A stretch of DNA of 51,518 nucleotides from Pseudomonadota bacterium (GCA_021811225.1 JAJZPJ010000001.1:1-51518); one strand, 5' to 3'. Shown: positions 10,299-25,859, counted from the stretch's first letter. Program-made: numbers and translations. Notes: generated by a model not told the origin, from the sequence alone.

Positions 10299-10331
10299 AT
10301 CCTTCTTTCCCCCCTGATTGAGTCATGGCGA

Positions 10332-10399
10332 TGTTTCAAAAACGTTTCATGTTACATCGCATTTTGTTACGAGAAACACTATTTGAAACATTCATGAAA
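10332..10399. promoter_or_regulatory. candidate upstream activator sequence: GTTTC/GAAAC half-site array
   Basis: TGTTTCAAA (10332-10340) and TTTGAAACA (10382-10390) are a perfect 9-bp inverted pair. A second GTTTC (10344-10348) and GAAAC (10373-10377) lie inside them, and TTTCATG (10345) pairs with CATGAAA (10393). The array is 85-140 bp upstream of the -24 element. Confidence 0.35.
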
Positions 10400-10474: not shown

Positions 10475-10490
10475 TGGCATGGGCATTGCT
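10475..10490 (+). promoter_or_regulatory. sigma-54 (-24/-12) promoter
   Basis: TGGCAT-GGGCA-TTGCT matches TGGCAC-N5-TTGCW with exact spacing. It faces the 11-gene operon, is divergent from the sigma-54 activator gene, and follows an AT-rich stretch. Confidence 0.8.
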
Positions 10491-13861: not shown

Positions 13862-15745
13862 ATGCCAGCCACCATCGTTCAAACCAACAACGCGCCTTTC
13901 AAGGACGTCAAGCTTGATTCCATTACCCTCGACATCATCGAGAATGCCCTGCGCAATGCGCGAGCAGAGATGGATGCGGTGCTCTTTCGCACCGCCATGT
14001 CCCCAGGAATCCGCGAGCAGCACGACGCCTTCCCGATGATCGCCAACAACGAAGGAAAGATGGTCGTCGGCCAGTTCGGCTCTTTCATCCACGGCTTCGT
14101 TCAGGGCTACGAGGGCACGATTGAAGAGGGTGACGTCTTCCTGACCAACGATCCCTATTCCTGCAATGGCGCCGTCAGTCATCTCAACGACTGGCTGACC
14201 TTGATGCCGGTATTCCACGACGGCCGCATCGTCAGCTGGGCGGCCATGTTTGGACACATGACCGACATCGGCGGGAAGGTACCGGGTAGCCTGCCTACAG
14301 ATGCCGCTCAGATTTTCGAAGAGGGGTTCCAGATTCCGCCGATCAAGCTGATCCGCAAGGGTGAACTGAATCGCGAAGTGCTGGAGATGATCCTGCGTAA
14401 CTGCCGCATGCCGGAATGGAACCGCTCCGATTTGAACGCCATAATCGCCGCGCTGCGCCTTGCCGAGCGGCGGGTGCACGAGATCGTCGAACGCTTCGGG
14501 GTGGACAATTACATCGCCGCCATGTACGAGATGCTCGACCGAAACAAGCGTGCGATGAGTGCCATCATCAAGATGGTGGTGCCGGAGAAGAAGGCCTACT
14601 TCGAGGACTATATCGACGACGATGGCCTGGGCATGGGTCCCTACAAGGTTGCCTGCAGCCTTTGGCGGGAGGGCGATGTCGCCCACTTCGATTTTGAGGG
14701 AACCGATCCGCAGTCGATTAGTTCGGTGAACTTCTACCTCAACGAGGAGATGTTCAAGATGTTCCTGGGGGCTTTCTTCATCAACCTGTTTGATCCGCAG
14801 ATCCTGTTCAACGACGGCTTCTATGAACTGGTCAGCGTGCGCATTCCGGACGGCTGCATTTTGAAGCCTAAGCGTCCGGCCGCACTCTCCTGCCGCACTC
14901 ACCTGCTCGGCCGTATCTTCGACATCATGGGCGGGCTCCTGGGCCAGGGGGCGCCAGAGGCTTTGAACGCCGCCGGATTCTCCGACAGCCCGCACCTCAT
15001 GTACTCAGGCTACGACCGGAATGGCGAGTGGTACCAGTTGTTCCAGATCGGCTTCGGCGGCATCCCCGGCCGTCCTTCTGGCGACGGCCCCGATGGTCAC
15101 TCACTCTGGCCCTCATTCACCAATGTGCCGAACGAATTTCTCGAGAGCTATTTCCCGTTGCGTATCATGGCCTACGAGTCGATTGCAGACTCCGGCGGCC
15201 CCGGCCAGCATCGCGGCGGCAATGGCGTGTGTACCGCTTATGAATTCCTCGAGACCGGGGAAATCTCGATTCATGACGACCGCTGGCTGACCTACCCCTG
15301 GGGCGTCAATGCCGGCCTTCCGGGTGGGCGCAGCAACAAACTCCTGGTGCGGAAGGATGGCTCGCAAGCGCATCTCCCATCGAAATGCGACCGGGTCAAG
15401 GTTCACGAGGGAGACATCCTCTATTACAACACCTGGGGTGGCGGTGGCTGGGGCGATCCCCTGAAGCGGCCGGCAGAAATGGTGGCTCAGGATTGCGAGC
15501 GCGGCCTGGTCACTGTCGCGGGCGCCCGTCGCTATGGCGTGGTGGTCAGCGAAGACTTCACGCTGGATCAGGCCGCCACGGCAGAACTGCGCCAGCAGAT
15601 GAGCACAGAGCGCAAGGAGGCGCCGCTGTTCAATCGCGGTGGCACGATCGAAGAACTGAAAGCCCGGTGCAAGGAGGAAACAACTTTCGAACCTCCGCGC
15701 ACGCCAGTCTTCGCCAACTGGATGCGTTCGAAGGCCGCGGTTTGA
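13862..15745 (+). CDS. hydantoinase/oxoprolinase family, B (HyuB-like) subunit
   Basis: LDSITLDIIENALRNARAEMDAVLFRTAMSPGIREQHDAFPMI and GGGGWGDPLKRPAEMVAQD are typical Hydantoinase_B N- and C-terminal signatures. Confidence 0.92.
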   Translation: MPATIVQTNNAPFKDVKLDSITLDIIENALRNARAEMDAVLFRTAMSPGIREQHDAFPMIANNEGKMVVGQFGSFIHGFVQGYEGTIEEGDVFLTNDPYSCNGAVSHLNDWLTLMPVFHDGRIVSWAAMFGHMTDIGGKVPGSLPTDAAQIFEEGFQIPPIKLIRKGELNREVLEMILRNCRMPEWNRSDLNAIIAALRLAERRVHEIVERFGVDNYIAAMYEMLDRNKRAMSAIIKMVVPEKKAYFEDYIDDDGLGMGPYKVACSLWREGDVAHFDFEGTDPQSISSVNFYLNEEMFKMFLGAFFINLFDPQILFNDGFYELVSVRIPDGCILKPKRPAALSCRTHLLGRIFDIMGGLLGQGAPEALNAAGFSDSPHLMYSGYDRNGEWYQLFQIGFGGIPGRPSGDGPDGHSLWPSFTNVPNEFLESYFPLRIMAYESIADSGGPGQHRGGNGVCTAYEFLETGEISIHDDRWLTYPWGVNAGLPGGRSNKLLVRKDGSQAHLPSKCDRVKVHEGDILYYNTWGGGGWGDPLKRPAEMVAQDCERGLVTVAGARRYGVVVSEDFTLDQAATAELRQQMSTERKEAPLFNRGGTIEELKARCKEETTFEPPRTPVFANWMRSKAAV

Positions 15746-15747: not shown

Positions 15748-16686
15748 ATGCCCGATCGCATCCAGATCAATGAGGTGAGCCCGCGGGACGGGCTGCAGAA
15801 TCAGGTCGTGCATTTGTCGCTCGACGAGAAGCTTGAACTCATCGATGCCCTGGTCGCGGCGGGGCTCACGGCGATCGAGGCCACCAGCTTCGTCTCGCCG
15901 AAAGCCGTGCCGCAGCTGGCCGACGCAGATCAACTCTTCCCGAGGCTGCCTCGCCCGGAACGCGTCAGCTATTCGGCGCTGGTGCCGAATGTGCGCGGCC
16001 TCGAGCGCGCCCTGACAGCGGGGGTTCGCGAGATTGCCGTGGTCCTGTCGGCCACCGATACCATGAACCGGCGCAACATCAATATGTCGCTCGGCGAGGC
16101 GCGCCAGGCTTGCATCGACGTGATGACGGCGGCAGGCGCAAGGGGCTTGCGGAAAAAGGCCTATGTGGCCGTTGCCTTCACTTGCCCCTTCGAGGGAAAG
16201 GTGGCCCCTGGCCGCGTGATCGAGCTTGCCGACGAGATGTTCGCCAACGGAGCCGACGAGGTGGTGATCGCCGACACTATTGGCGCCGCCAATCCGCGCG
16301 AGGTTTCCTCCTTGCTCGCGGACTGTGTCGAACGATTCGGGGCAGGATGTTTGGCAGCGCACTTCCATGACACGCGAGGCTTTGCCTTGGCGAATGCCTG
16401 GGCGGCGCTGACAGCGGGCGTCAGGCGCTTCGATGCCAGCATCGGCGGCTTGGGCGGTTGTCCCTTTGCACCGGGGGCGGCCGGCAACCTGGCGACCGAA
16501 GATTTGGTGCTGATGACGGAGCAATGCGGCTTTGAGACCGGCGTCGATGTAGCCAAGCTACGTCTGGCGGTGGCCATCGCCGAACGCCTTGTGCAAAGGT
16601 CGCTGGGAGGCAGGACAACGGCTTGGCTTCAGGCCCAAGATTTGAAGGAGCAGTGCCGGCGCGACAACGCCGGCGCTGCGTTTTAG
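15748..16686 (+). CDS. HMG-CoA-lyase-family (HMGL-like) acyl-CoA lyase
   Basis: ATG 15748 is 2 nt after the HyuB stop. INEVSPRDGLQN, HFHDTRGFALANAWAALTAGVRRFDASIGGLGGCPFAPGAAGNLATEDLV. Confidence 0.9.
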   Translation: MPDRIQINEVSPRDGLQNQVVHLSLDEKLELIDALVAAGLTAIEATSFVSPKAVPQLADADQLFPRLPRPERVSYSALVPNVRGLERALTAGVREIAVVLSATDTMNRRNINMSLGEARQACIDVMTAAGARGLRKKAYVAVAFTCPFEGKVAPGRVIELADEMFANGADEVVIADTIGAANPREVSSLLADCVERFGAGCLAAHFHDTRGFALANAWAALTAGVRRFDASIGGLGGCPFAPGAAGNLATEDLVLMTEQCGFETGVDVAKLRLAVAIAERLVQRSLGGRTTAWLQAQDLKEQCRRDNAGAAF

Positions 16687-16700
16687 GGAGAATCAAGGTG

Positions 16701-17684
16701 ATGAGACGATTGGGCAGGGTCTTGTCCTCGATCATGCCGTTCGCGATCATCGGTGGACTGCTCTATGCCGGCATTTTCGTCAAGCCGAAAGCCACGGGAG
16801 ACAGCGTTGAGCCGCCGGTACTCCAGCCTCGCGATGCCTTCTATGGCATCGCCGTTCCTGATGATAAGGTCATCTGGGCGGTAGGCCGTGGCGGCAAGGT
16901 GGTGCGCAGCGAGGATGCCGGCGCGCACTGGATTAGCCAGAAAACCCCGTCACGCCAGAGCCTGCAGTCCTTGATCGCCTGGGACGCCCGGCGCGCCTTC
17001 GCCGTTGGCAATCAGATGACCGTCTTGCACACCGAAGACGGCGGCAAGAAGTGGTCGGCGCTGGCCGGATTTGCCCAGGCCGGCGAAGTACAGAAACTGA
17101 TTCGGGCAAGGTCTGGGGCTGGCGGAAATGCCTGGATAGTGGGCGAAATGGGCAGCATCTTCGCCACTGCCGACTATGGCCAGACCTGGGTCAGACTCGG
17201 CAAGCGGGAGGACCTCGCGTGGAACGATATCGCCGCTCACGGCGCCTGGCTCACGGTGGTTGGCGAATTCGGCCACATCCGGTTGTCGGAGGACGGTGGG
17301 GCGAACTGGAAGGAGGTTGCGAGCCCGGTGAAATCCAGCCTGTGCGCGGTCATGTATCGCGATGAGCGCAATGGCGTGGCGGTCGGACTGGAGGGCGTGA
17401 TCCTGGTGACCAAGGACGGCGGCCGGACTTGGAGCAAGGTCGCCTCCGGCACCGCCGAACACCTCTACGATGTGGCCTGGACCGGCCAGCGTTGGGTCGC
17501 GGTAGGAGACCAGGGTCTCATTCTGACTGCAGAAGACCCCTCCGATGCTTGGCTCGTGCGCAGCATCTCAGAACGCAGCTATGCCTGGCATACCGGTCTT
17601 GTCAGTCGTGGCGATCGCCTCTACGTGGCCGGGGCTACGCTGGCCATGATCGATTCAAAGAATAAGGTTCAGACCTTCAAATGA
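16701..17684 (+). CDS. signal-anchored BNR/Ycf48-like beta-propeller protein
   Basis: ATG 16701 (or GTG 16698) follows GGGAG. It has an N-terminal hydrophobic anchor and then repeated S-x-D-x-G-x-x-W motifs (SEDAGAHW, TEDGGKKW, TADYGQTW, SEDGGANW, TKDGGRTW). Confidence 0.82.
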   Translation: MRRLGRVLSSIMPFAIIGGLLYAGIFVKPKATGDSVEPPVLQPRDAFYGIAVPDDKVIWAVGRGGKVVRSEDAGAHWISQKTPSRQSLQSLIAWDARRAFAVGNQMTVLHTEDGGKKWSALAGFAQAGEVQKLIRARSGAGGNAWIVGEMGSIFATADYGQTWVRLGKREDLAWNDIAAHGAWLTVVGEFGHIRLSEDGGANWKEVASPVKSSLCAVMYRDERNGVAVGLEGVILVTKDGGRTWSKVASGTAEHLYDVAWTGQRWVAVGDQGLILTAEDPSDAWLVRSISERSYAWHTGLVSRGDRLYVAGATLAMIDSKNKVQTFK

Positions 17685-20080
17685 CGTCTCCCGAATTATC
17701 CAAGGCCCCCGAGTCCAAGGTCGCCCGCTTCGTTCGCTTTTGCATCAGGCAGCGACTCGCGGTCGTACTCGTGATGGGCGTGCTGACCGCGGTGTTTGCC
17801 CTGCTCGCGGTGCAAATCGAGATCAAGACGGTCTTCGACGACCAGTTGCCGCAGAACCATCCCTACATCAAGGTGAACGACCAGTTCAAGCAGACCTTCG
17901 GCAGCTCCAACATGGTCAGCATCATGCTGGAGGTGAAGGACGGCGATATTTTCCAGCCGTCCGTGCTGAAGAAGATCCAGAAGGTCACTCAGGAGTTGCA
18001 ACTCGTCGATGGGGTGAACCAGTTTCAGATCATCTCACTGGCGGCAAAGAAACTGAAGGAGATCCGAGCGTCGACCGAAGGCATCGACATCAAGCCGCTG
18101 ATGTGGCCCAAGGTTCCGAAAACGCAAGGCGAAATCGATAAGCTTAAGGACGCGGTCCTGAGGAACCCGCTTGTCTACGGCACCTATGTATCCGCGGACC
18201 TAAAGGCAGCTCTGGTGACGGTCGATTTCTATGATAATGAAATTAATTACAAAAAAATCTATGACCAGATCGGCGCCATCACACGCTCCGTCGCCGGGGA
18301 CGGAGTTACGGTGCGCGTTGTTGGCGAGCCTATCCTCTATGGTTGGGTAAGGCATTACCTGCCCGAGACCGGGCGAATTTTTTTGGTTACGCTAGTTGCG
18401 TTGATCGCGCTGTTGTTCCTGACGGCGAGGACTTGGCGCGGCACCTTGCTGCCGCTCCTGGCCGGTGTCGTCAGCTCCATCTGGGCGCTAGGCGCGGCCC
18501 GACTGCTGGGATTCCATTTGGATCCCTTGGTGATCGTGGTGGCCTTCCTGATCACCGCCCGAGCGATCTCCCATTCGGTGCAACTGGTTACCCATTACGA
18601 CGACGAGCTCGCCGCGGGGGCAGAGAATTCAGCGGCGGCGGCGACCGCCGCCATGTACGCCCTGTTCAAGCCGGGGATGCTCGGTGTCGTTGCCGATGCG
18701 GGCTGCATGATCGTCGTGATTCTGACTCCCATCCCGCTGCTGCAGAAGGTCGCCATGATCGGCACGGTCTGGGTTCTGACGATTGCGATCAGCGCCGTCG
18801 TGCTGACCCCGGTGTTGTTGTCCTGGATCAAGAGACCCAACCAGTTCGCCCATCCGATCAACGTGCGTCCCATGATGGAGCGCCTGCTCGGCGGTTGCGT
18901 GCGCATTGCCAGCACGCGTATGCGCTATGTCGTGGTCGCGGCGACCGCGGTGATTTTCGTGGTATCGGGCATTTACGCCTTCAAGCTGAAGGTCGGTGAT
19001 GCCAATCCCGGTTCCCCCATCCTTTGGGGCGACTCGACCTACAATCAGGACGCTGCCGCCATCAATCAGCGTTTCCAGGGGGCAGACCGGATGTTTGTGG
19101 TCTTCTCGGGGGACAAGACCGATGCGTTGAAGGAGCCGGCCGCCCTGCAGAGCATGGCCGCTTTCCAGGCGTACATGGAGAATCAGCCCGGGGTGGGCGG
19201 TACGCTGTCCATGGCCGACATCGTGCCGATCATGAACCGCATTCTGCACGAGGGTAATCCGCGCTACGAGGAACTAGGCACGAGTTTCGTCGAGAACGGC
19301 GAGATCATGTATCTGTTCACCTCAGGCACCGACCCCGGCGACATCGACCGCCTAGTCGATCCGCAATACAAGAATGCCTCGGTCACCATCCTGTTCCGGG
19401 ATCACCAGGGCGAGACCATCCGCTCGGCCATTTCGCACGTCGAGGACTTCGTCGCCGCGCACCCGGACAGCACCGTCAAGATTCGGCTGGCGGGCGGCTT
19501 GATTGGCGTGCTGGCCGCGGTCAATGAAATCATCTTGTCGAAACAGATTGAGAGCATAGCCTTGGCCTTGCTGGTGCTGGTGCTCTGCTGCGCGGTGGCC
19601 TACCGTTCGCTCGCCGCCGGCCTGTTCTTCATGGTGCCGGTGCTGCTCTCCAACACCCTTACTTTCAGCTTCATGGCCTGGAAGGGGATAGGCATGAACA
19701 TCAACACCCTGCCGATCGCGGCCTTGGGCATAGGGCTCGGCGTTGATTATTCTTTTTATGTGGTTGATGAGATTCGCGAGGAACTTCGTCGCGGAGAGCC
19801 CTTGTTCAAGGCTATCGAACTTTCCTTGATGAGCGCCGGCCGTGGCGTACTGATCACCGCTGCGACCCTGATTACCAGCGTGGTCATCTGGTACCTGTCC
19901 TCAATTCGATTCCAGGCAGAGATGGGGATACTCATGGCCTTGTGGCTGTTCATTTCGGCGGCGACATCCCTGCTGGTCATGCCCGCTTTGGTGGTCTTGC
20001 TAAAGCCCAAATTTATTTTTGAGTCGGTGGGCAAGTCGGGGCCGAGCCGAAATACGGCCATGCTCCAGGAAGCGATGTAA
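17681..20080 (+). CDS. RND-superfamily MMPL/HpnN-like permease
   Basis: ATGA overlap with the previous gene. 799 aa with two blocks of about six helices, each preceded by a large soluble loop. No membrane-fusion or TolC-type partner is encoded nearby. Confidence 0.85.
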   Translation: MTSPELSKAPESKVARFVRFCIRQRLAVVLVMGVLTAVFALLAVQIEIKTVFDDQLPQNHPYIKVNDQFKQTFGSSNMVSIMLEVKDGDIFQPSVLKKIQKVTQELQLVDGVNQFQIISLAAKKLKEIRASTEGIDIKPLMWPKVPKTQGEIDKLKDAVLRNPLVYGTYVSADLKAALVTVDFYDNEINYKKIYDQIGAITRSVAGDGVTVRVVGEPILYGWVRHYLPETGRIFLVTLVALIALLFLTARTWRGTLLPLLAGVVSSIWALGAARLLGFHLDPLVIVVAFLITARAISHSVQLVTHYDDELAAGAENSAAAATAAMYALFKPGMLGVVADAGCMIVVILTPIPLLQKVAMIGTVWVLTIAISAVVLTPVLLSWIKRPNQFAHPINVRPMMERLLGGCVRIASTRMRYVVVAATAVIFVVSGIYAFKLKVGDANPGSPILWGDSTYNQDAAAINQRFQGADRMFVVFSGDKTDALKEPAALQSMAAFQAYMENQPGVGGTLSMADIVPIMNRILHEGNPRYEELGTSFVENGEIMYLFTSGTDPGDIDRLVDPQYKNASVTILFRDHQGETIRSAISHVEDFVAAHPDSTVKIRLAGGLIGVLAAVNEIILSKQIESIALALLVLVLCCAVAYRSLAAGLFFMVPVLLSNTLTFSFMAWKGIGMNINTLPIAALGIGLGVDYSFYVVDEIREELRRGEPLFKAIELSLMSAGRGVLITAATLITSVVIWYLSSIRFQAEMGILMALWLFISAATSLLVMPALVVLLKPKFIFESVGKSGPSRNTAMLQEAM

Positions 20081-20139
20081 AGCCAGGGTCGCTGGCAATT
20101 TCAGCGGCACTTTCGCATTTCAAAGGAAGGAGTCAAGAC

Positions 20140-21861
20140 ATGGGGCAAGATCAGAAGTTGGCAACAGCACTTCGGCCGGTGATCCTCGCGGTGTTGGCGG
20201 CGGCATGGAGCGGGGCGTCATACGGTGCCGATGGGGGCAACAAGATCCCCGAGAGCCAGCCGTCATTGAGTGCCGATGGGGACAACATTATTCCGGAGAG
20301 CCGGTTCCATCTGGGCGGTTATGTTCGCGGCGCGGCATCAATGAACCTCCAGGACCAGCCGGAAACGACGGGCAACGACAAGGGCAAGCTCTCGATGCTG
20401 AGGGGCACCGTGCTGCTCGACGCGGACTACAAAGCCAGCACGACCGCACAATTCAAGGTCATTGCCCGGGCTGATCGCGAAGACAATACCAGCTACCTGC
20501 AGTCGCTCGCGGCGCCTCCAAGCCAGAAGCCGGCCGGATCGACTGCGGTGGTCTTTAATACCAACGGCGGCGGCGGCGTCGGCGGCCTCATGAATATGTA
20601 CAATCAGGCCGACCTACGTGAATTATGGGGCCAGTTCGATCTGAACGACAGGGTGAGGATCAAGCTCGGCAAGCAGCAAATCGTCTGGGGCGAGAGCGAC
20701 TTCTTTCGCGCCATGGATATCGTGGAGGGCTTCGACTACAGCTGGCGCTCCTTCCTCGAGGTGGAGAACGAGGAACTGCGCAAGCCGCTGATCATGGGTC
20801 GGATGATGATTCAGGTGCCCGAGGCCAATGGTTCCGTCGATGCCTATGTTCGACCCGGCTGGGACCGTGATCGTGACATCGGCAACACCTATGATCTCGC
20901 CGGTGGTCGCTGGGCCGCCCAACCGACCCGCGGCGCGAGCTTCCTCTATGCCACCGGCTATAACTACCATAGTAAGGGCGCAGATGTCCGCGACCCGACG
21001 GGCGGCATCCGCTGGCAGGGGATGGCGGGCGAGATCAACTACTCGGTCGCGCTGGCCAACACCTTCAATAATGACCCGGTCGCCAATCCGTGCCCGAGCA
21101 CCTTGGCGATTTTGGGGAGCAAGGGTGCACAAGTCTTCAAGCAGGCTCCTATCAACTGCGGCTTCGGCAGCAAGGACCCCTACGGCAATCCCTTACAGTT
21201 TGGCGACTGGATATTTCCCAAGACCAGCATCCTGGGGATGACCGCATCGGGATATTCCAACGCCATGGATGCGGTGTTGTCGACGGAAATCGTGTTCCAG
21301 AAGGACCGCGCCTTCAACTACGGCTTCATCGATGGAAAATTCGGACCCAACATAACGCCGGGGGCGTTCGGCATCATCCAGAAGAACACCCTGACGACCA
21401 TGTTCCGCATCGACAAGAACATCGACCTGACCGGCATCATCGGCACCAGCCGACCTTCCTTCGGTTCGCTGCAATTCTTCAACACCCGCATCCTGGGCTT
21501 CGACAAGAGCGATGAGATCGTACAACTGGCCTACTGGGACCGCGCCCGTTCCCGCGACTCGGCGATGTTGACCGCCATCCTGGGCATGAACTACAGCAAC
21601 GACCGCATCAATCCTTCGATCGCGGCAGGCTGGGACATGAGCTACGGCGGCGGCTTCTTCATTCCGTCCGTCGAGTGGGTGCTGGGCGACAACTGGCGCG
21701 TGAAGGGCGAACTGGATCTGTTCTATGCCGGAGGCAACACCAAGAACTACTACCTCAGCCCAACCACCGGCGCCTTTGACCGCCAGGGCAGCAGCGCGGG
21801 CTTGATGGGCTACTTCGCGAACTCCGACCAGCTCGCGGTCCGCGTGACGCGCCAGTTCTGA
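20140..21861 (+). CDS. DUF1302-family outer-membrane (beta-barrel-like) protein
   Basis: Signal peptide (AVLAAAWSGASYGADG), LGKQQIVWGESDFFRAMD, and a C-terminal aromatic residue (RVTRQF). The RBS is AAGGAAGGAG. Confidence 0.8.
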   Translation: MGQDQKLATALRPVILAVLAAAWSGASYGADGGNKIPESQPSLSADGDNIIPESRFHLGGYVRGAASMNLQDQPETTGNDKGKLSMLRGTVLLDADYKASTTAQFKVIARADREDNTSYLQSLAAPPSQKPAGSTAVVFNTNGGGGVGGLMNMYNQADLRELWGQFDLNDRVRIKLGKQQIVWGESDFFRAMDIVEGFDYSWRSFLEVENEELRKPLIMGRMMIQVPEANGSVDAYVRPGWDRDRDIGNTYDLAGGRWAAQPTRGASFLYATGYNYHSKGADVRDPTGGIRWQGMAGEINYSVALANTFNNDPVANPCPSTLAILGSKGAQVFKQAPINCGFGSKDPYGNPLQFGDWIFPKTSILGMTASGYSNAMDAVLSTEIVFQKDRAFNYGFIDGKFGPNITPGAFGIIQKNTLTTMFRIDKNIDLTGIIGTSRPSFGSLQFFNTRILGFDKSDEIVQLAYWDRARSRDSAMLTAILGMNYSNDRINPSIAAGWDMSYGGGFFIPSVEWVLGDNWRVKGELDLFYAGGNTKNYYLSPTTGAFDRQGSSAGLMGYFANSDQLAVRVTRQF

Positions 21862-21887
21862 ATCCCAGACTTGATTAAGGAGATAAC

Positions 21888-23150
21888 ATGAAACAGAGAT
21901 ACATCGCCCGCTTCCTCTTGGTGGGGCTGGTAACCATGACTTCGGCAGGCGCTGCGCTGGCGGTCGAACTGGCCGCAGGCACGGTGATCAGCAAGGCCAA
22001 TATCGACCAGGTCAAGAATGACACCTTCGAGGGCAAGACTATCGCCAGCATGCTGCCGGAAAAGATGGACATGCAGATCCGCAAATACGGCTTGACGCTC
22101 AAGCTGCGCAAATCCCAGCCGATCGCACTCGATCCGAAAATGCTCGAGGCAACCCACAAATATGCCGGCCAGGTCAGGTACGATGCGGCAAAGAACGAGG
22201 TCAGCGGCTACAAGGCCGGCTTGCCCTTTCCGAACCTCAGCCCTACGGACCCGAACTATGCCGCGAAGCTGGTGTGGAACGTCTACTATGCTTCGCCGGT
22301 GGGGCAGGTGATGGACTTCCGTAAATTCGCTTTTCTGCTGATCGATGGCGACAAGGGTCTGGAGCGAACCCAGCACTGGTTCTTCCTGCGTGACTTCATG
22401 AAGAATCGGCTGACGGGTTCCGGGGTTCCGGTGGAAGGCGATGGCACCGAGTTCACCCGGACCCTGCTGTTCGCCACCTATCCGGAGGACATCCGCGGCA
22501 TCGGCACCTATACCATCCGCTATGATGGTCCGCAGGTGGAAGACCAATGGGTCTATATCAAGAGCTTCCGCCGCACTCGCCGGCTGCCCGGCGGCGCCTG
22601 GATGGATCCGATCGGTGGCACCGACCAACTGAATGACGACATCGAGATCTGGAATGCCCGCCCTAGCTGGTATAAGTCCTTCAAGTATCTCGGCAAGCGC
22701 TGGGTATTGGCGACAGTCCGCGGAGCCAAGGCCTGGGACGAGTCGAAGAAGGGCACGCCCGCAGAATTCCCGCTGGTCGATCTCACGCACGCGCCCTACT
22801 GGAACCCTCTTGACGAGGTCGAGCCGCGCGAGGTGTATGTCGTAGAGGCCGTTCCGCCGCCCGAGCATCCCTACAGCCGCAAGGTGATCTACATCGACAC
22901 GCAGATCCCGCGTATTTTATACGGCGAGGCCTATGATAAAAAGGGTGATTTTTGGAAGTGGATGGCCTTCAGCAGTCGCCCCCTCAAGGGCGAAGACGGG
23001 GTTCAGACCTGGGTCTCTAACCAGGGCCTTGTCATCGACTTCAAGCGCATGCATGCGACGGTCTTCGTTTCCCATCCGTCATGGAGGACCAATACAGCCG
23101 TCAAGGCATCGGATGTGACGCTGGGCAAGCTAGAGGCCGCCGGCCAGTAA
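21888..23150 (+). CDS. DUF1329-family periplasmic LolA-like protein
   Basis: Signal peptide MKQRYIARFLLVGLVTMTSAGAALA. The length and motif layout are typical of DUF1329 proteins, which pair with DUF1302. Confidence 0.78.
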   Translation: MKQRYIARFLLVGLVTMTSAGAALAVELAAGTVISKANIDQVKNDTFEGKTIASMLPEKMDMQIRKYGLTLKLRKSQPIALDPKMLEATHKYAGQVRYDAAKNEVSGYKAGLPFPNLSPTDPNYAAKLVWNVYYASPVGQVMDFRKFAFLLIDGDKGLERTQHWFFLRDFMKNRLTGSGVPVEGDGTEFTRTLLFATYPEDIRGIGTYTIRYDGPQVEDQWVYIKSFRRTRRLPGGAWMDPIGGTDQLNDDIEIWNARPSWYKSFKYLGKRWVLATVRGAKAWDESKKGTPAEFPLVDLTHAPYWNPLDEVEPREVYVVEAVPPPEHPYSRKVIYIDTQIPRILYGEAYDKKGDFWKWMAFSSRPLKGEDGVQTWVSNQGLVIDFKRMHATVFVSHPSWRTNTAVKASDVTLGKLEAAGQ

Positions 23151-23223
23151 GAGTACCATAGCAACAGGCCCCTACGGGGGAGTAGGCCGTGCCTGCTCCC
23201 CATTTTCCTTGAGAGGATAAGCC

Positions 23224-23826
23224 ATGGCGACGCCGCCCAACAAAGCGGTCGGTCTGGGCGCCAAGTCCGCACTCATCGTTGTCGATGCTACCCTCGGTTT
23301 CACCGACCCCGGTTCGCCGTTGGGGTGCCCAAGCGATATTGAAGTCGGAGCGATCAAGCGCCTGCTTGGTGCCTTTCGCAGGCACCGGCTACCGATCGTG
23401 TTCACGACCAATGCCTATAGCCATCCGGCGGAAGCCAGCGTATTCAGGGAGAAGCTCCCTCTGTTGAATGAACTCGTCGTCGGCGGTGCTCTCGCTGCCA
23501 TAGACCCGCGCTTGCAGCCACAGGTGGGCGAAGTCGTTCTGAACAAAGGGGTTCCCAGCGCTTTTTTCGACAGCCCCTTACGGCAAATGCTCTGCAATAT
23601 GGGCGTCGACTCGGTCGTGGTCTGCGGCTTCAGCACCAGCGGTTGCGTCAGGGCGACAGCTGTCGATGCCCTGCAATCCAATTTCCGTCTGATGGTGGTA
23701 GCGGATGCCTGCGGCGATCGAGACAGGGCAGCACACGCCGCCAATTTGCGCGACCTCGGGCTCAAGTACGGCGACGTCGTCGATCTCGATACCGCCTTGG
23801 AAATGATCGAGCGCCTGCCTTGCTAG
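23224..23826 (+). CDS. isochorismatase-family (cysteine) amidohydrolase
   Basis: Catalytic triad context: ALIVVDAT (Asp), LNKGVPSAF (Lys), GFSTSGCVRATAVDA (Cys). This is the same family as N-carbamoylsarcosine amidase, maleamate amidohydrolase NicF and RutB. Confidence 0.88.
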   Translation: MATPPNKAVGLGAKSALIVVDATLGFTDPGSPLGCPSDIEVGAIKRLLGAFRRHRLPIVFTTNAYSHPAEASVFREKLPLLNELVVGGALAAIDPRLQPQVGEVVLNKGVPSAFFDSPLRQMLCNMGVDSVVVCGFSTSGCVRATAVDALQSNFRLMVVADACGDRDRAAHAANLRDLGLKYGDVVDLDTALEMIERLPC

Positions 23827-23841
23827 AAAAAGTGAACTGCT

Positions 23842-25251
23842 ATGGCAAATACATTGTTTGACAAGGTTTGGGAAGCGCATCAGATTGCAGCACTTGCCGG
23901 CAATGTCAGTCTGCTGCATGTGGATCGTCATTTGCTGCATGAGCTAACGGGCTCAGCGGCGATTAAACAGCTGGAAAAACGCGGCGTAGCGATACGCGAT
24001 CCAGGACTGACCTTCGCCACACTGGATCACGTGATCTCGACCAAGCCGGGTCGCACTACGGGCGATGAGGGCTGGAGTACCGTGATGGTGGACACGCTGC
24101 GCGAGCAAACCACGCGCATGAAAATTCAGCGCTTCGACATAGAAGACGGGCGCCAGGGCATTGTGCACGTGATCGGACCCGAAATGGGCCTGACACTTCC
24201 TGGCCTCGTCATTGTCTGTGGCGATAGCCATACCTGCACGCACGGCGCATTCGGCGCGATCGCCTGGGGCATCGGCTCTTCCGAACTGGTGCATGTATTG
24301 GCAACGCAGACCATTCGGCAACGGCGGCCCAAAACCATGCGCGTGAATTTCAATGGCACACCAAGTGAGGGCGTTGCCGCCAAGGATCTGATTCTTTACT
24401 TGATTGGCGTGCTCGGCACCTCAGCCGGCATCGGTTACGCAGTCGAATTCGCCGGTCCGGCAATTCGCCAGCTCGATATGGAAGGTCGCATGACCTTGTG
24501 CAACCTGTCTATCGAACTCGGCGCGAAAATGGGCATGATCGCACCGGATGAGGTGACGTTCGCATACCTGCAAGGCCTGGAGTTTGCCCCGAGGGGCGAG
24601 CAATTCGATCTGGCCGTCGACAGCTGGAAGCTGCTGGCGTCAGGTGCCGACGCCGTATTTGACAAGGAAGTCGACATCGACGTTGCCGCCGTCAAACCCC
24701 AGGTCACTTGGGGCACGAGTCCGGAGCATGCAGCGTCCATTGATGCGACAGTGCCTGATCCGGCGGCTGAAAGTGATTTGGCGCGGCGTGCAGCCCTGGA
24801 AGGCGCGCTTGCGTATATGCAGCTGGAGCCCGGCCAACCCATCGACCAGATCCCGATTGACCACGTATTCATAGGCTCCTGTGCGAATAGCCGGTTGTCC
24901 GACCTGCAGTCTGCGGCACGGGTAGTCAAGGGCCGACGCATCGCTCCCAACGTCACCGGATGGGTGGTGCCCGGTTCGCTGAAAGTGAAACGACAGGCCG
25001 AGAGTGAAGGTCTGGATCGGATTTTTCTTGATGCCGGATTCGAGTGGCGTGAGCCGGGCTGCTCGATGTGCGTGGGCGCAAACGGCGACTTAGTCGGTCC
25101 TGGACAGCGTTGCGTTTCGACATCGAACCGCAACTTCGTGGGACGTCAAGGACCCGGCGCGCTGACTCATCTGGCAAGTCCGGCAGTTGCCGCAGCCAGC
25201 GCGATCGCGGGCACCATCGCTTGTCCGGAAATGATCGGATACAAATCATGA
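23842..25251 (+). CDS. aconitase-family dehydratase large subunit (LeuC-like)
   Basis: LFDKVWEAH, HVDRHLLHE, VCGDSHTCTHGAFGA, IGSCANSRLSDL and CSMCVGANGD (the Fe-S cysteines). Confidence 0.9.
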   Translation: MANTLFDKVWEAHQIAALAGNVSLLHVDRHLLHELTGSAAIKQLEKRGVAIRDPGLTFATLDHVISTKPGRTTGDEGWSTVMVDTLREQTTRMKIQRFDIEDGRQGIVHVIGPEMGLTLPGLVIVCGDSHTCTHGAFGAIAWGIGSSELVHVLATQTIRQRRPKTMRVNFNGTPSEGVAAKDLILYLIGVLGTSAGIGYAVEFAGPAIRQLDMEGRMTLCNLSIELGAKMGMIAPDEVTFAYLQGLEFAPRGEQFDLAVDSWKLLASGADAVFDKEVDIDVAAVKPQVTWGTSPEHAASIDATVPDPAAESDLARRAALEGALAYMQLEPGQPIDQIPIDHVFIGSCANSRLSDLQSAARVVKGRRIAPNVTGWVVPGSLKVKRQAESEGLDRIFLDAGFEWREPGCSMCVGANGDLVGPGQRCVSTSNRNFVGRQGPGALTHLASPAVAAASAIAGTIACPEMIGYKS

Positions 25252-25859
25252 AGGCATTTACCATATGTGAAGGCTACGCCGCCCCCCTCATGCATGACAA
25301 CATCGATACCGATCTGATCATCCGCATCGAGCGTATCGCCAAACTCAAGCGTGGTGAATTCGCACCGTGGGCATTCGAGGCGAACCGTTATTTTGCTGAT
25401 GGCGCTGAGGACCCGAGCTTCGTACTGAATCAGGTCCCATTCCGGAAAGCGCAGATTCTGATCTCTGGCGCCAATTTTGGATGCGGTAGTTCGCGCGAAA
25501 TGGCGGTGTGGTCAATTGAGGAATTTGGCATACGCTGCATCATCGCACAAAGCTACGGTGATATTTTTTTCGGCAACTGTCTGCAAAACGGCGTGCTGCC
25601 GATTACGCTCGAACAAAATCAGATCAATGCGCTGGCGAAAGTGGCAGCGTCAGGCGCCACAGTAAAAGTTGACTTGCAGACCTGCACGATTTCGACCGTT
25701 GCGACTGGCGCAATATCATTTGCGTTTCCAGAAGCTCAGCGTCAGGCATTGCTAACTGGGTGCGACGAAGTCGATCAGACGCTGAAAATTGCGTCGCAGA
25801 TCGACCGGTTTCAGCAGGAGGATCGACGCGTGCGACCTTGGGTTTATAACGTGGGATGA
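25248..25859 (+). CDS. aconitase-family dehydratase small subunit (LeuD-like)
   Basis: ATGA overlap with the large subunit. DNIDTDLIIR, GANFGCGSSREMAVWSIEEFGIRCIIAQSYGDIFFGNCLQNG. Confidence 0.88.
   Translation: MKAFTICEGYAAPLMHDNIDTDLIIRIERIAKLKRGEFAPWAFEANRYFADGAEDPSFVLNQVPFRKAQILISGANFGCGSSREMAVWSIEEFGIRCIIAQSYGDIFFGNCLQNGVLPITLEQNQINALAKVAASGATVKVDLQTCTISTVATGAISFAFPEAQRQALLTGCDEVDQTLKIASQIDRFQQEDRRVRPWVYNVG

What the first reader, a model, noticed from the sequence alone, without database searches (positions are those of the whole stretch)
16701..23150. Four-gene envelope module (BNR propeller, MMPL/RND permease, DUF1302, DUF1329) embedded in the middle of a sigma-54 catabolic operon
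Four consecutive, tightly spaced genes encode one component for each envelope compartment.
- Inner membrane: a 12-helix RND-superfamily MMPL/HpnN-like permease (17681-20080).
- Periplasmic face of the inner membrane: a signal-anchored beta-propeller with five SxDxGxxW BNR motifs (16701-17684). Its stop overlaps the permease ATG.
- Periplasm: a secreted DUF1329 protein (LolA-like fold family).
- Outer membrane: a secreted DUF1302 protein ending in an aromatic residue, as beta-barrel proteins typically do.

No membrane-fusion protein or TolC-type channel is encoded in the island. The architecture therefore differs from a classical tripartite RND pump. It looks more like a shuttle of the Lol/Lpt/Mla type: permease, soluble carrier and barrel.

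As far as I know, co-occurrence of DUF1302, DUF1329, a BNR protein and an RND permease has been noticed in genome annotations, but no mechanism or substrate is established. Here the module sits between enzymes of one pathway under one promoter, which points to substrate uptake or product export for that pathway. This is my best candidate for an uncharacterised system in the window.
Basis: partly seen in the sequence, partly recalled or inferred. Interest (0 to 1): 0.8.

Follow-up and report, generated by a model that had tools for sequence, protein, structure and literature searches.

The report
Four-gene hydrophobe transporter inside catabolic operon
Four adjacent genes encode an inner-membrane pump, its propeller partner, a periplasmic carrier-like protein and an outer-membrane barrel; this set is already described in bacteria that degrade oily compounds (AmeABCD), its mechanism is still unsolved, and here it sits inside an operon for an unidentified cyclic amide or ketone.

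Summary
Window 16701-23150 encodes four tightly spaced genes:
- a Ycf48-like BNR propeller with an N-terminal membrane anchor;
- a 12-helix HAE3/MMPL-type RND permease;
- a DUF1302 protein, modelled as an 18-strand outer-membrane barrel;
- a secreted DUF1329 protein with a LolA-like fold.

No membrane-fusion or TolC-type gene lies in the island. In 80 genomes anchored on the permease, the propeller gene is adjacent in 80/80. All four genes are present in 71 of the 73 loci with enough sequence.

The module is not new. It matches AmeABCD of Castellaniella defragrans, where deletion lowers monoterpene tolerance. It also matches the co-fit sets Sama_1588-1591 and PP_0765/0766 + PP_2018/2019. A carrier-shuttle model from AlphaFold co-folding was published in 2024. 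Direction and substrate remain unproven.

Two things are new here:
- The module is fixed inside a sigma-54 operon (CoA-transferase, HyuA/HyuB, HMG-CoA-lyase-like, amidase, LeuCD-like). This operon recurs in three other metagenomic lineages.
- Permeases at least 60% identical to this one are linked to Hyu-type genes (21/25 versus 3/54).

Verdict: a new member of a known, poorly understood kind. I commit to a proton-driven outward relay that acts as a tolerance valve (about 0.45). An inward, substrate-acquiring relay is the main rival (about 0.33).

The parts
8358..10298 (-). Divergent PrpR_N-PAS-sigma-54 AAA+-HTH_8 enhancer-binding activator
   Evidence: Pfam hits: Sigma54_activat 2e-68, PrpR_N 1e-46, PAS, HTH_8. 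An orthologue holds the same position in L010 and L092.
10331..10391 (.). Inverted repeat ATGTTTCAAA...TTTGAAACAT, a candidate activator binding site (UAS)
   Evidence: the repeat finder pair I2 is 10 nt and 100% complementary. It lies about 85-145 nt upstream of the -24 element. Its function is inferred only.
10475..10490 (+). Sigma-54 promoter-like -24/-12 element TGGCATgggcaTTGCT
   Evidence: It has one mismatch to TGGCAC-N5-TTGCW. It is the only such match on the + strand at one mismatch or fewer, and it lies in the divergent intergenic region.
10533..11732 (+). Family III CoA-transferase. The start is probably GTG 10533, not ATG 10479
   Evidence: Pfam CoA_transf_3, E = 1e-122. ATG 10479 lies inside the promoter element. 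A Shine-Dalgarno-like AAGGGA at 10521 precedes GTG 10533.
11767..13839 (+). HyuA-type subunit of an ATP-dependent hydantoinase/oxoprolinase/carboxylase family enzyme
   Evidence: Pfam Hydant_A_N, Hydantoinase_A and Hydant_A_C. ATG 11767 follows GGAGG. The gene call in identical contigs is 690 aa.
13862..15745 (+). HyuB-type subunit
   Evidence: Pfam Hydantoinase_B, E = 2e-149. The nearest solved relatives are 6yra at 2e-66 (deposited as 'Hydantoinase'; that it is a caprolactamase is my recollection) and N-methylhydantoinase 7hk5 at 2e-65. The nearest NCBIfam model is caprolactamase subunit beta, 4e-68. Acetone and acetophenone carboxylases score only 1e-23 to 1e-32.
15748..16686 (+). HMG-CoA-lyase-like (HMGL-like) lyase
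   Evidence: NCBIfam PRK05692 scores 350 bits against a cut-off of 246. PDB 1ydo matches at 2e-74.
16701..17684 (+). Ycf48-like BNR beta-propeller with N-terminal membrane anchor (AmeC-like, COG4447)
   Evidence: Pfam PSII_BNR, E = 1e-20. PDB Ycf48 2xbg/5ojp, about 5e-17. Five [ST]xDxGxxW motifs and a hydrophobic helix at residues 7-25. Adjacent to the permease in 80/80 loci.
17681..20080 (+). HAE3/MMPL-type RND permease (AmeD-like), 799 aa
   Evidence: Pfam MMPL 1e-34 and TIGR00921 HAE3 1e-49. The nearest solved relatives are MmpL5, HpnN and MmpL3. Hydropathy is consistent with 12 helices and two periplasmic loops of about 180 aa. D689-Y690 in TM10 and D339 in TM5 are invariant in 80 homologues.
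20140..21861 (+). DUF1302 outer-membrane beta-barrel (AmeA-like)
   Evidence: Pfam DUF1302, E = 2e-13. AF2 model has pLDDT 81 and pTM 0.82 with 18 long strands. Foldseek matches porins at E about 1e-11 and the 18-strand barrels AlgE and OccAB1 at TMq 0.42-0.43. The C-terminal Phe is invariant. No solved relative is found by sequence.
21888..23150 (+). DUF1329 secreted LolA-like protein (AmeB-like)
   Evidence: Pfam DUF1329 1e-56 and LolA_like 1e-15. AF2 model has pLDDT 93 and pTM 0.90. Foldseek matches LolA3 9tp6 at TMt 0.83 and the DUF1329 structure 4z48 at TMt 0.70. It has a signal peptide and no lipobox Cys.
23177..23201 (+). GC-rich hairpin (11-bp stem) followed by AUUUUCC. Possibly a partial terminator or transcript-stabilising element at the 3' end of the module
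   Evidence: Found by the terminator scan. RNA fold energy is -26.7 kcal/mol, z = -1.9. Comparable hairpins follow the DUF1329 gene in L092 and L089. Its function is inferred.
23224..23826 (+). Isochorismatase-family amidohydrolase
   Evidence: Pfam Isochorismatase, E = 5e-33. The nearest solved relative is N-carbamoylsarcosine amidohydrolase at 8e-42, followed by 4l07 (2e-36) and 3ot4/3uao (1.5e-29). These last entries are deposited as isochorismatase-family hydrolases; that they are maleamate amidases is my recollection.
23842..25251 (+). LeuC-like aconitase-family large subunit
   Evidence: Pfam Aconitase, E = 9e-159. NCBIfam PRK12466 scores 711 bits.
25248..25859 (+). LeuD-like small subunit, last gene of the low-GC island
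   Evidence: Pfam Aconitase_C. NCBIfam PRK01641 scores 216 bits. The gene call in identical contigs is 203 aa. GC content rises from about 0.59 to about 0.70 after 26.4 kb.

Best explanation
**What it is (about 0.9).** An AmeABCD-type, four-component HAE3-RND envelope transport system. It is induced from the same sigma-54 promoter as the enzymes around it.

**How I think it works**
- The 12-helix permease uses the proton gradient. It carries an invariant membrane Asp-Tyr pair.
- The permease forms a unit with the membrane-anchored Ycf48-like propeller. The two genes are translationally coupled or abutting.
- Cargo is a neutral, membrane-partitioning compound, most likely the cyclic amide or ketone that the adjacent HyuA/HyuB enzyme attacks first.
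- The cargo passes between the permease's small periplasmic domains and the LolA-like DUF1329 protein.
- DUF1329 docks on the 18-strand DUF1302 barrel in the outer membrane.

**Direction I commit to.** Outward. [quoted passage not shown] The module then acts as a tolerance valve that keeps a toxic growth substrate at a safe level while the cytoplasmic enzymes consume it. This is the function claimed for AmeABCD.

**Shown versus inferred**
- Shown here: the families, the folds, the absence of MFP/OMF, the co-occurrence and the operon embedding.
- Inferred: the complexes, the cargo, the proton coupling and the direction.
For: **Families and folds**
- Family assignments.
- Folds.

**Architecture differs from a tripartite pump**
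- No MFP or OMF gene is in the island.
- The permease has short periplasmic loops and an ACR_tran score below threshold.

**Proton coupling**
- D689-Y690 (TM10) and D339 (TM5) are invariant in 80 homologues.
- HMMER aligns the DY of TM10 to the 'DY' motifs of MmpL5.

**Co-occurrence**
- The propeller gene is next to the permease in 80/80 loci, with a median gap of -1 nt.
- All four genes are present in 71/80 loci. Only 2 loci with room to spare lack DUF1302/DUF1329.

**The same embedded arrangement recurs**
- It is seen in L010, L092 and L089 at 52-83% protein identity.
- GC content is uniform across the island, so the module is not a recent insertion.

**Link between transporter subclade and pathway**
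- Permeases at least 60% identical to this one are next to Hyu-type genes in 21/25 loci, against 3/54 for more distant ones.
- Fisher p = 3e-12, not corrected for phylogeny.

**Published evidence for outward direction**
- A ΔameABCD mutant grows normally with acetate plus up to 5 mM limonene but fails at higher limonene. It also accumulates slightly more Nile Red (PMC6394551).
- Every characterised bacterial RND transporter named in these searches (MmpL3/5, HpnN, AcrB) moves cargo outward. This rests on established knowledge of the family.
- The four genes lie in sigma-54 phenol/aromatic regulons and were interpreted as a solvent-stress response (PMC6449761).

**Outer-membrane location**
- DUF1302 and DUF1329 proteins were detected in outer-membrane-vesicle 'nanopods' of Delftia (PMC3110197).

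**Contacts**
- Published AlphaFold co-folding predicts DUF1329-barrel and DUF1329-propeller-permease contacts (PMC10866462).
- A DUF1302-DUF1329 pair scored ipTM 0.84 (PMC13499233).
Against: **Direction is not shown for any member with a natural substrate**
- The Nile Red effect in C. defragrans was slight and was seen only in CCCP-treated cells.

**Some phenotypes fit uptake at least as well**
- The P. putida homologues are needed to grow on Tween 20 and butyl stearate.
- A Delftia DUF1329 deletion impaired growth on poorly soluble phenanthrene.
- ΔameABCD grows poorly on limonene as sole carbon source.

**Design argument**
- A soluble high-affinity carrier is unusual for a high-capacity efflux valve. 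It is typical of scavenging or lipid trafficking.

**Limits of this work**
- No complex, cavity or pore was measured. No multimer prediction was run and I had no access to model coordinates.
- The cargo is unknown and the operon's chemistry is only inferred.
- I did not compare sequences directly with AmeA-D.
Confidence: 0.45

Rival explanations
1. **Same four-part machine, but running inward as a substrate-acquisition route.**
- The DUF1302 barrel admits a poorly soluble substrate across the outer membrane.
- DUF1329 carries it through the periplasm.
- The propeller-permease unit unloads it into the inner membrane, as NPC2 hands cholesterol to NPC1 in eukaryotes.
- From the inner membrane the substrate reaches the cytoplasmic HyuA/HyuB.
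For: **Position in the operon**
- The module sits in the conserved core of the operon, between the first-step enzymes HyuA/HyuB and the amidase. It stays there while the lower-pathway genes vary.
- The operon encodes no other transporter.

**Genome context elsewhere**
- In 70+ genomes the module sits in catabolic clusters for hydrophobic substrates: ring hydroxylases, extradiol dioxygenases, meta-cleavage genes and ketone-carboxylase-like genes.
- The permease subclade tracks the pathway type.

**Published phenotypes**
- The homologues are needed for growth on Tween 20 and butyl stearate and on phenanthrene.
- The Foldy authors call it a 'substrate transport system'.

**Design**
- A soluble LolA-like carrier suits scavenging.
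Against: - No bacterial RND transporter is known to work inward (established knowledge of the family).
- A sink-driven inward flux of a membrane-permeant compound would not obviously need a proton-coupled permease. Yet the Asp-Tyr relay is invariant and the permease is always present.
- The C. defragrans mutant is more sensitive, not less, to high limonene when acetate is supplied.
Confidence: 0.33
2. **The module moves an endogenous envelope lipid, not the catabolic substrate.**
- It would export a cell's own lipid or remodel the outer membrane, for example through vesicle or 'nanopod' formation or a change in surface hydrophobicity.
- This would help growth on hydrophobic compounds indirectly.
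For: - Price et al. found pleiotropic phenotypes and proposed 'export of a cell wall component'.
- DUF1302 and DUF1329 proteins are found in Delftia nanopod vesicles.
- The HAE3 relative HpnN carries hopanoids to the outer membrane (cited; sequence relation).
- DUF1329 shares its fold with lipoprotein and lipid carriers.
Against: - Here the module is under a substrate-responsive sigma-54 promoter, inside a catabolic operon on a horizontally acquired island.
- Permease subclades track the neighbouring pathway type. A generic envelope-lipid function does not predict that.
- The island contains no lipid-biosynthesis genes.
Confidence: 0.12
3. **The four genes are a passenger.** They are a mobile cassette that landed in the operon, have no functional tie to the enzymes, and may be decaying.
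For: - The whole region is a low-GC island.
- A strong hairpin separates the module from the three downstream genes.
Against: - GC content is uniform across enzymes and module.
- All four reading frames are intact with conserved invariant residues.
- The same embedding recurs in lineages whose DUF1302 proteins are only 52-66% identical.
- No integrase, transposase or tRNA was seen: ARAGORN found no tRNA in the window, and the family assignments made across most of the window include no integrase or transposase.
Confidence: 0.03

Closest known systems
AmeABCD of Castellaniella defragrans 65Phen ('tetrapartite' HAE3-family RND transporter; Puentes-Cala & Harder 2018, PMC6394551)
   Same: - The same four protein families: DUF1302 outer-membrane protein, DUF1329/LolA-like, COG4447/Ycf48-like, and an HAE3 RND permease of about 790 aa.
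- No MFP or OMF.
- Encoded inside a catabolic island and co-induced with the pathway.
- Similar protein sizes.
   Different: - Gene order is ameA-B-C-D (DUF1302-DUF1329-propeller-permease). Here it is propeller-permease-DUF1302-DUF1329, the order in 68 of 71 complete loci.
- The neighbours there are monoterpene enzymes. Here they are HyuA/HyuB, a CoA-transferase, a lyase, an amidase and LeuCD-like genes.
- I did not measure sequence identity to AmeA-D.
- No phenotype is known for this copy.
Co-fit sets Sama_1588-1591 (Shewanella amazonensis) and PP_0765/PP_0766 + PP_2018/PP_2019 (Pseudomonas putida); Price et al. 2016, Thompson et al. 2020, Foldy 2024
   Same: - The same four families, with genetic evidence that they act together.
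- AlphaFold co-folding predicts that DUF1329 binds both the barrel and the propeller-permease pair.
   Different: - In pseudomonads the genes are split over two loci and are regulated by LuxR-type factors.
- The phenotypes are pleiotropic, or specific to fatty esters.
- They are not embedded between the enzymes of one operon.
HpnN (hopanoid) and MmpL3/MmpL5 (mycolate, siderophore) RND lipid transporters
   Same: - 12-helix RND permeases with two small periplasmic domains.
- A membrane Asp-Tyr motif.
- They are the nearest solved relatives by sequence.
   Different: - Scores are far below the family cut-offs: HpnN 66 bits against 752, and 32 against 1100.
- Those transporters are not encoded with a Ycf48-like propeller, a LolA-like protein or a DUF1302 barrel.
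Tripartite HAE1 efflux pumps (AcrAB-TolC, TtgGHI)
   Same: - RND superfamily and proton-driven.
- Some protect solvent degraders and lie near catabolic genes.
   Different: - No membrane-fusion protein and no TolC-type channel here.
- The permease is about 250 aa shorter and below the ACR_tran threshold.
- The outer-membrane part is a single-chain 18-strand barrel.
Lol and Mla inter-membrane shuttles (LolA/LolB; MlaC with MlaA-OmpC)
   Same: - A soluble periplasmic protein of LolA-like fold.
- It sits between an energised inner-membrane component and an outer-membrane acceptor or donor.
   Different: - The energy source is an RND permease, not an ABC transporter.
- DUF1329 carries an extra N-terminal region of about 110 aa.
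- The cargo is unknown.
- No LolB- or MlaA-type lipoprotein is present.
Ycf48/HCF136 photosystem II assembly factor
   Same: Same propeller fold family: PDB 2xbg/5ojp at about 5e-17, and Pfam PSII_BNR.
   Different: - It scores 75 bits against an equivalog cut-off of 326.
- The host is a non-photosynthetic Rhodocyclaceae bacterium.
- It is anchored by a transmembrane helix and coupled to an RND gene.

Membership tests
AmeABCD-type four-component HAE3 RND system | HAE3/MMPL-type 12-helix RND permease with small periplasmic domains | tested here: met
   MMPL 1e-34. TIGR00921 HAE3 1e-49 is the best NCBIfam hit, though below its subfamily cut-off. Hydropathy shows two periplasmic loops of about 180 aa.
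AmeABCD-type four-component HAE3 RND system | COG4447/Ycf48-like beta-propeller gene adjacent to the permease | tested here: met
   PSII_BNR 1e-20. There is a 4-nt overlap with the permease gene. The propeller gene is adjacent in 80/80 related loci.
AmeABCD-type four-component HAE3 RND system | DUF1302 outer-membrane beta-barrel protein in the cassette | tested here: met
   Pfam hit at 2e-13. The AF2 model is an 18-strand barrel with pTM 0.82. Foldseek matches porins, AlgE and OccAB1.
AmeABCD-type four-component HAE3 RND system | DUF1329 / LolA-superfamily periplasmic protein in the cassette | tested here: met
   Pfam hit at 1e-56. The AF2 model has pLDDT 93. Foldseek matches LolA3 at TMt 0.83 and 4z48 at TMt 0.70.
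AmeABCD-type four-component HAE3 RND system | Permease falls in the AmeD lineage by phylogeny or direct similarity to AmeD | not tested
AmeABCD-type four-component HAE3 RND system | Deletion reduces growth on, or tolerance of, the hydrophobic substrate of the neighbouring pathway | not testable with these tools
   This needs genetics in a cultured host and knowledge of the inducing substrate.
Tripartite HAE1 RND efflux pump (AcrAB-TolC type) | Membrane-fusion (HlyD-type) protein and outer-membrane factor (OEP/TolC) encoded with an AcrB-type permease | tested here: not met
   No such family occurs among the genes from 8.3 to 26 kb. ACR_tran scores 19.5 bits, below its cut-off of 28. An AcrB-type gene lies on the same contig, but beyond the window and outside the island.
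HpnN hopanoid transporter | Score above the HpnN model cut-off; stand-alone permease in an hpn context | tested here: not met
   TIGR03480 scores 65.8 bits against 751.85, and NF052374 scores 32.4 against 1100. The gene context is catabolic.
Lol lipoprotein-sorting pathway | LolCDE ABC transporter with LolA and the lipoprotein LolB | tested here: not met
   The only resemblance is the fold of DUF1329. There are no ABC genes in the island, and DUF1329 has no lipobox.
Ycf48/HCF136 photosystem II assembly factor | Score above the equivalog cut-off; photosynthetic host | tested here: not met
   NF010237 scores 75.2 bits against 326. The host is a Rhodocyclaceae MAG.

The most novel reading that the evidence does not exclude
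The module is an RND-powered importer. The DUF1302 barrel and the LolA-like DUF1329 carrier would capture a poorly soluble cyclic amide, imide or ketone outside the cell or in the outer membrane. The proton-coupled permease-propeller unit would then unload it into the inner membrane for HyuA/HyuB. To my knowledge, that would be the first bacterial RND transporter shown to work inward, a prokaryotic counterpart of NPC2/NPC1. It would also explain why this cassette accompanies so many pathways for hydrophobic substrates.
Probability: 0.33. Interest if true: 0.8.

Novelty: new member of a known kind. Interest (0 to 1): 0.35.

Why it matters
**The cassette is widespread and unsolved**
- It occurs in Beta- and Gammaproteobacteria that degrade terpenes, aromatics, polycyclic hydrocarbons, fatty esters and ketones.
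- A profile built from close DUF1302 relatives alone finds about 1,270 clusters at 50% identity.
- No member has a solved structure for the barrel, a known cargo or a demonstrated direction of transport.

**What this window contributes**
- It does not reveal a new kind of system. It offers a clean natural experiment.
- One sigma-54 promoter, one activator and a compact operon hold the module between the first-step enzyme and its amidase. The arrangement is conserved across four lineages.
- It also shows that one permease subclade travels with Hyu-type ATP-dependent amidohydrolases and carboxylases.
- If the inducing substrate can be found, this operon would be a good place to settle whether these machines import or export. 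That question bears on bioremediation and on solvent-tolerant production strains.

Tried and rejected
- **Classical pump.** I looked for MFP and OMF genes across the island and its flanks and found none.
- **Plasmid or mobile-element origin.**
  - Megablast of 8.3-26 kb against 72,556 plasmids gave only short hits of 74-84% identity to hyuB or prpR-like genes.
  - ARAGORN found no tRNA in the window, and no integrase or transposase appears among the family assignments made across most of the window.
  - The island is low-GC, but I found no mobility genes.
- **Translational coupling as a universal feature.** The 4-nt start/stop overlap between propeller and permease is present in only 17 of 79 related loci. 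The genes are always abutting, with a median gap of -1 and a range of -43 to +99 nt. I therefore claim tight linkage, not a conserved overlap.
- **ORF 5800-8304 (-), 834 aa.** It has no Pfam hit. It lies antisense to the MFS and ssb genes called on identical contigs, so I treat it as spurious.
- **NCBIfam.** It has no model that matches DUF1302 or DUF1329.
- **Sequence search of DUF1302 against the PDB.** Nothing was found even at E = 10.
- **Sigma-70 promoter and terminator scans.** Overall counts were no higher than in shuffles. Only the hairpin at 23177-23201 was kept, because it recurs at the same place in two other loci.
- **Literature search for AmeABCD follow-up work.** It returned only the 2018 paper.
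- **Not possible here.** I could not run multimer structure prediction, cavity or pore measurement on the models, or a direct comparison with AmeA-D.

Full report
**1. What is in the sequence**

The region 16701-23150 holds four same-strand genes with gaps of -4, 59 and 26 nt.

| Gene | Pfam family | E-value |
|---|---|---|
| 16701-17684 | PSII_BNR/Ycf48 (plus BNR) | 1.2e-20 |
| 17681-20080 | MMPL | 1.3e-34 |
| 20140-21861 | DUF1302, nearly full-length | 1.8e-13 |
| 21888-23150 | DUF1329 (plus LolA_like, 1e-15) | 1.4e-56 |

- In NCBIfam the permease's best hit is the HAE3 subfamily, E = 1e-49. It is far below the cut-offs for HpnN, MmpL3 and BstA.
- The permease scores below threshold for AcrB.
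- Gene calls on identical public contigs give the same boundaries: 327, 799, 572/573 and 420 aa.
- The propeller has one N-terminal hydrophobic helix and five [S/T]xDxGxxW motifs, two with Ser and three with Thr, plus a degenerate sixth.
- The propeller's stop overlaps the permease ATG.
- DUF1302 and DUF1329 start with signal-peptide-like segments without a lipobox Cys.
- DUF1302 ends in Phe, which is invariant in 66 homologues.

**2. Folds**

*DUF1302*
- With a 66-sequence alignment, AlphaFold2 gives pLDDT 81 and pTM 0.82.
- The model has 18 long strands after a disordered N-terminus of about 50 residues.
- Foldseek against the PDB returns only outer-membrane barrels. General porins score E about 1e-11. 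The 18-strand AlgE, OccAB1 and chitoporin give the highest query-normalised TM scores, 0.42-0.43.
- No solved relative is detectable by sequence. This agrees with a 2026 paper stating that no DUF1302 structure exists (PMC13499233).

*DUF1329*
- The model has pLDDT 93 and pTM 0.90.
- Its C-terminal 280 residues or so superpose on LolA3 of Porphyromonas gingivalis (TMt 0.83) and on the DUF1329 crystal structure 4z48 (TMt 0.70). More loosely they match LolA, LolB and RseB.
- An N-terminal region of about 110 residues has no counterpart in those structures.

*Propeller and permease*
- The propeller matches Ycf48 structures at about 5e-17.
- The permease's nearest solved relatives are MmpL5, HpnN and MmpL3.
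- In an alignment of 80 homologues, D689-Y690 in TM10 and D339 in TM5 are invariant.
- HMMER aligns that DY to the DY motifs of MmpL5. This is the basis for inferring proton coupling.
- I could not inspect model coordinates. The cavity in DUF1329 and the pore in DUF1302 are therefore untested.

**3. Surroundings**

*Neighbouring genes*
- The four genes lie in a 12-gene, same-strand array from about 10.5 to 25.9 kb. In order it encodes:
  - family III CoA-transferase, HyuA, HyuB and an HMG-CoA-lyase-like protein;
  - the module;
  - an isochorismatase-family amidohydrolase, a LeuC-like and a LeuD-like protein.
- A PrpR_N-PAS-sigma-54 activator is divergent.

*Promoter and internal hairpin*
- A near-consensus -24/-12 element, TGGCATgggcaTTGCT, lies at 10475-10490. 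A perfect 10-nt inverted repeat lies upstream.
- The promoter element overlaps the ATG at 10479. The CoA-transferase therefore probably starts at GTG 10533, behind AAGGGA.
- One internal feature qualifies the 'one promoter' statement. An 11-bp GC-rich hairpin with a weak U-tract lies at 23177-23201, right after DUF1329.
- Similar hairpins follow the DUF1329 gene in two related loci.

*Island and flanks*
- No MFP or OMF gene lies in the island.
- An AcrB-type gene exists on the same contig, but beyond the window's left end, past uvrA.
- The island from 8.3 to 26.4 kb has GC of about 0.59. The flanks are at 0.66-0.70, and GC is uniform across enzymes and module.
- The flanks are core genes: uvrA and ssb on the left, and the yraN/rsmI region and the dcw cluster on the right.
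- ARAGORN found no tRNA in the window, and the family assignments include no integrase or transposase.
- The organism is a Rhodocyclaceae MAG (99% identity).

**4. Census**

A scan of one genome per species, using the permease as query, returned 80 loci at 53-99% identity. They come from Rhodocyclales, Burkholderiales, Pseudomonas and a few others. I searched their reading frames with the window's proteins.
- The propeller gene is directly upstream of the permease in 80/80 loci. The median gap is -1 nt.
- All four genes are present in 71/80 loci.
- Seven of the nine exceptions are cut by contig ends. Only L053 and L081 have 9-10 kb of room on each side and still lack DUF1302/DUF1329.
- The order propeller-permease-DUF1302-DUF1329 occurs 68 times. 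The 'Ame' order occurs 3 times, plus one truncated locus.

The commonest neighbouring gene clusters belong to these families:
- amidase;
- Rieske homotrimeric ring hydroxylase;
- LigB extradiol dioxygenase;
- meta-cleavage hydrolase, with DmpG and DmpF;
- AraC regulators, alcohol dehydrogenases and CoA ligases;
- acetone-carboxylase-like HyuA/HyuB plus gamma subunit.

The cassette is therefore a recurrent accessory of pathways for hydrophobic or neutral substrates.

**5. The operon itself recurs**

| Locus | Source | Arrangement |
|---|---|---|
| L010 | Sterolibacterium MAG | Activator, CoA-transferase, HyuA, HyuB, lyase, module, amidase, in the same order |
| L092 | Another MAG | The same, followed by LeuC, LeuD and the amidase |
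| L089 | JGI contig | HyuA-HyuB-module-amidase kept, but with a different lower pathway: two other CoA-transferases, mesaconyl-CoA-hydratase-like, PrpD-like, an acyl-CoA dehydrogenase and an MFS transporter |

- Identities to the window's proteins across L010, L092 and L089 are: HyuA 76-81%, HyuB 80-83%, permease 74-78%, DUF1329 57-73%, DUF1302 52-66% and propeller 46-55%.
- The constant core is therefore HyuA/HyuB, the module and the amidase.
- Across the census, permeases at least 60% identical to this one are next to Hyu-type genes in 21/25 loci. Three of the four exceptions are short contigs.
- For more distant permeases the figure is 3/54. Fisher p = 3e-12, not corrected for phylogeny.
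- In L093 the module follows HyuA, HyuB, a CoA ligase, a DUF35-type protein, a thiolase and a thioesterase. That set looks like a ketone-carboxylation route.

**6. What the enzymes suggest (inference, low confidence)**

- HyuB is closest to 6yra and N-methylhydantoinase, at about 2e-66. Ketone carboxylases score only 1e-23 to 1e-32. Entry 6yra is deposited as 'Hydantoinase'; my recollection is that it is a caprolactamase, and the nearest NCBIfam model is caprolactamase subunit beta.
- The isochorismatase-family protein is closest to N-carbamoylsarcosine amidohydrolase (8e-42). Next come 4l07 and 3ot4/3uao, which are deposited as isochorismatase-family hydrolases. From memory I take them to be maleamate amidases.
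- The lyase is a close relative of HMG-CoA lyases.
- A coherent reading has four steps:
  - ATP-dependent opening of a cyclic amide or imide;
  - deamidation to an alkyl-substituted maleate-type diacid;
  - LeuCD-type hydration;
  - CoA transfer and lyase cleavage.
- The analogy to citraconate, (R)-citramalate and citramalyl-CoA cleavage rests on my knowledge of LeuCD and of the Chloroflexus enzymes. It is not a test done here.
- The substrate is unknown.
- All these enzymes are cytoplasmic types, and the operon has no inner-membrane importer. The substrate is therefore probably neutral and membrane-permeant.

**7. What is already known**

- The four-gene set was described as AmeABCD in Castellaniella defragrans (PMC6394551).
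  - It is up-regulated on monoterpenes.
  - An ameB transposon mutant and a ΔameABCD strain grow poorly on hydrocarbon monoterpenes.
  - With acetate, the mutant tolerates limonene only up to 5 mM.
  - Nile Red accumulates slightly more in the mutant.
  - The authors call it a tetrapartite HAE3 RND exporter. They note that all members of the AmeD lineage are encoded with the three partners.
- Price et al. found cofitness of the four genes in Shewanella, Kangiella and pseudomonads. They proposed export of a cell-wall component.
- Thompson et al. found all four P. putida genes needed on Tween 20 and butyl stearate.
- The Foldy paper co-folded the four P. putida proteins. It proposed a 'novel substrate transport system' in which DUF1329 binds either the barrel or the propeller-permease pair.
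- A 2026 paper reports ipTM 0.84 for a DUF1302-DUF1329 pair.
- Suvorova & Gelfand placed the four genes in sigma-54 (AphR/S/T) phenol regulons of Betaproteobacteria, as a solvent-stress response.
- DUF1302 and DUF1329 proteins are in Delftia outer-membrane-vesicle nanopods.
- A Delftia DUF1329 deletion impaired growth on phenanthrene, and an anaerobic benzene degrader expresses a similar cluster highly.
What remains open is cargo, direction and structure.

**8. Mechanism and rivals**

I am about 0.9 confident that this is a functional AmeABCD-type trans-envelope transporter tied to the operon's substrate. Direction is close to a coin toss.

*Outward, about 0.45*
- Every characterised bacterial RND transporter works outward.
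- The invariant proton-relay residues and the obligatory presence of the permease fit uphill extraction from the membrane.
- The one direct experiment shows hypersensitivity to high substrate.

*Inward, about 0.33*
- This reading is supported by the module's place in the conserved operon core, next to the first enzyme.
- There is no other transporter in the operon.
- The permease subclade is linked to the pathway type.
- The ester and phenanthrene phenotypes fit uptake.
- A soluble carrier is an odd component for an efflux valve.

*Other readings*
- An indirect role through envelope-lipid export or vesicle formation gets about 0.12.
- A passenger cassette gets about 0.03. This is contradicted by the uniform GC and the conserved embedding.

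**9. Verdict**

The system is a new member of a known, named, mechanistically unresolved kind. The modest new points are:
- the conserved embedding in a Hyu-type sigma-54 operon;
- the association between this permease subclade and Hyu-type genes;
- a recurrent hairpin at the module's 3' end.

Interest is 0.35.

Noticed in passing
window 10475-10540: The sigma-54 -24/-12 element overlaps the ATG at 10479 that an ORF finder and public gene calls use for the CoA-transferase. The real start is probably GTG 10533, which is preceded by AAGGGA. That leaves a leader of about 30 nt.
   Followed up: partly
window 10331-10391: A perfect 10-nt inverted repeat, ATGTTTCAAA/TTTGAAACAT, sits within a 20-nt imperfect one. 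It lies in the AT-rich divergent intergenic region, upstream of the sigma-54 promoter. It is a candidate binding site for the PrpR_N-type activator.
   Followed up: partly
window 23177-23201; L092 12876-12993; L089 12982-13062: A strong GC-rich hairpin follows the DUF1329 gene in three differently arranged loci. In the window it has an 11-bp stem followed by AUUUUCC. It may set the ratio of transporter to downstream-enzyme transcripts or stabilise the upstream mRNA.
   Followed up: partly
window 8300-26400: The whole activator-plus-operon block is a low-GC island, about 0.59 against 0.66-0.70. It sits between uvrA-ssb and the yraN/rsmI-dcw region. I found no tRNA, integrase or transposase. It was probably acquired as one unit.
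   Followed up: partly
L012-L035, L084, L085 (census loci): Permeases at least 60% identical to the window's are almost always next to Hyu-type genes. Many of these are acetone-carboxylase-like sets with a gamma subunit (21/25 versus 3/54 for more distant permeases). This points to a transporter subclade specialised for substrates of ATP-dependent amidohydrolases and carboxylases.
   Followed up: partly
L053 and L081 (Rhodocyclaceae MAGs): A propeller-permease pair sits next to acetone-carboxylase-like genes, but with no DUF1302/DUF1329 within about 9-10 kb on either side. These are the only clear exceptions in the census. The partner genes may lie elsewhere, as in pseudomonads.
   Followed up: no
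L090 and L091 (Betaproteobacteria MAG and a Logan contig): This is a rearranged variant. The order is DUF1302, a short-chain dehydrogenase, an HbpS-like protein, the propeller and DUF1329. No permease lies between them before the contig ends.
   Followed up: no
window 10533-16686 and 23224-25859: The enzyme set does not match any pathway I can name: N-methylhydantoinase/caprolactamase-like HyuA/HyuB, an amidase closest to N-carbamoylsarcosine amidohydrolase (and, by my recollection of 4l07 and 3uao, to maleamate amidases), LeuCD-like, a family III CoA-transferase and an HMG-CoA-lyase-like protein. A route from a cyclic amide or imide through an alkylmaleate-type diacid to acyl-CoA plus an oxo-acid is plausible but untested.
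   Followed up: partly
alignment of 80 permease homologues (window residues 292-299 and 689-690): The membrane Asp-Tyr motif is kept only in the second half of the permease (TM10). By my own end-anchored comparison of the two repeat halves, the matching position in TM4 reads Ser-His in the window sequence, and T292 and S297 nearby are invariant. An invariant Asp sits in TM5. This asymmetry differs from the paired TM4/TM10 Asp-Tyr arrangement I recall for MmpL3.
   Followed up: no
window 5800-8304 (-): An 834-aa open frame has no family hit. It lies antisense to the MFS and ssb genes, so it is almost certainly a spurious high-GC ORF.
   Followed up: yes
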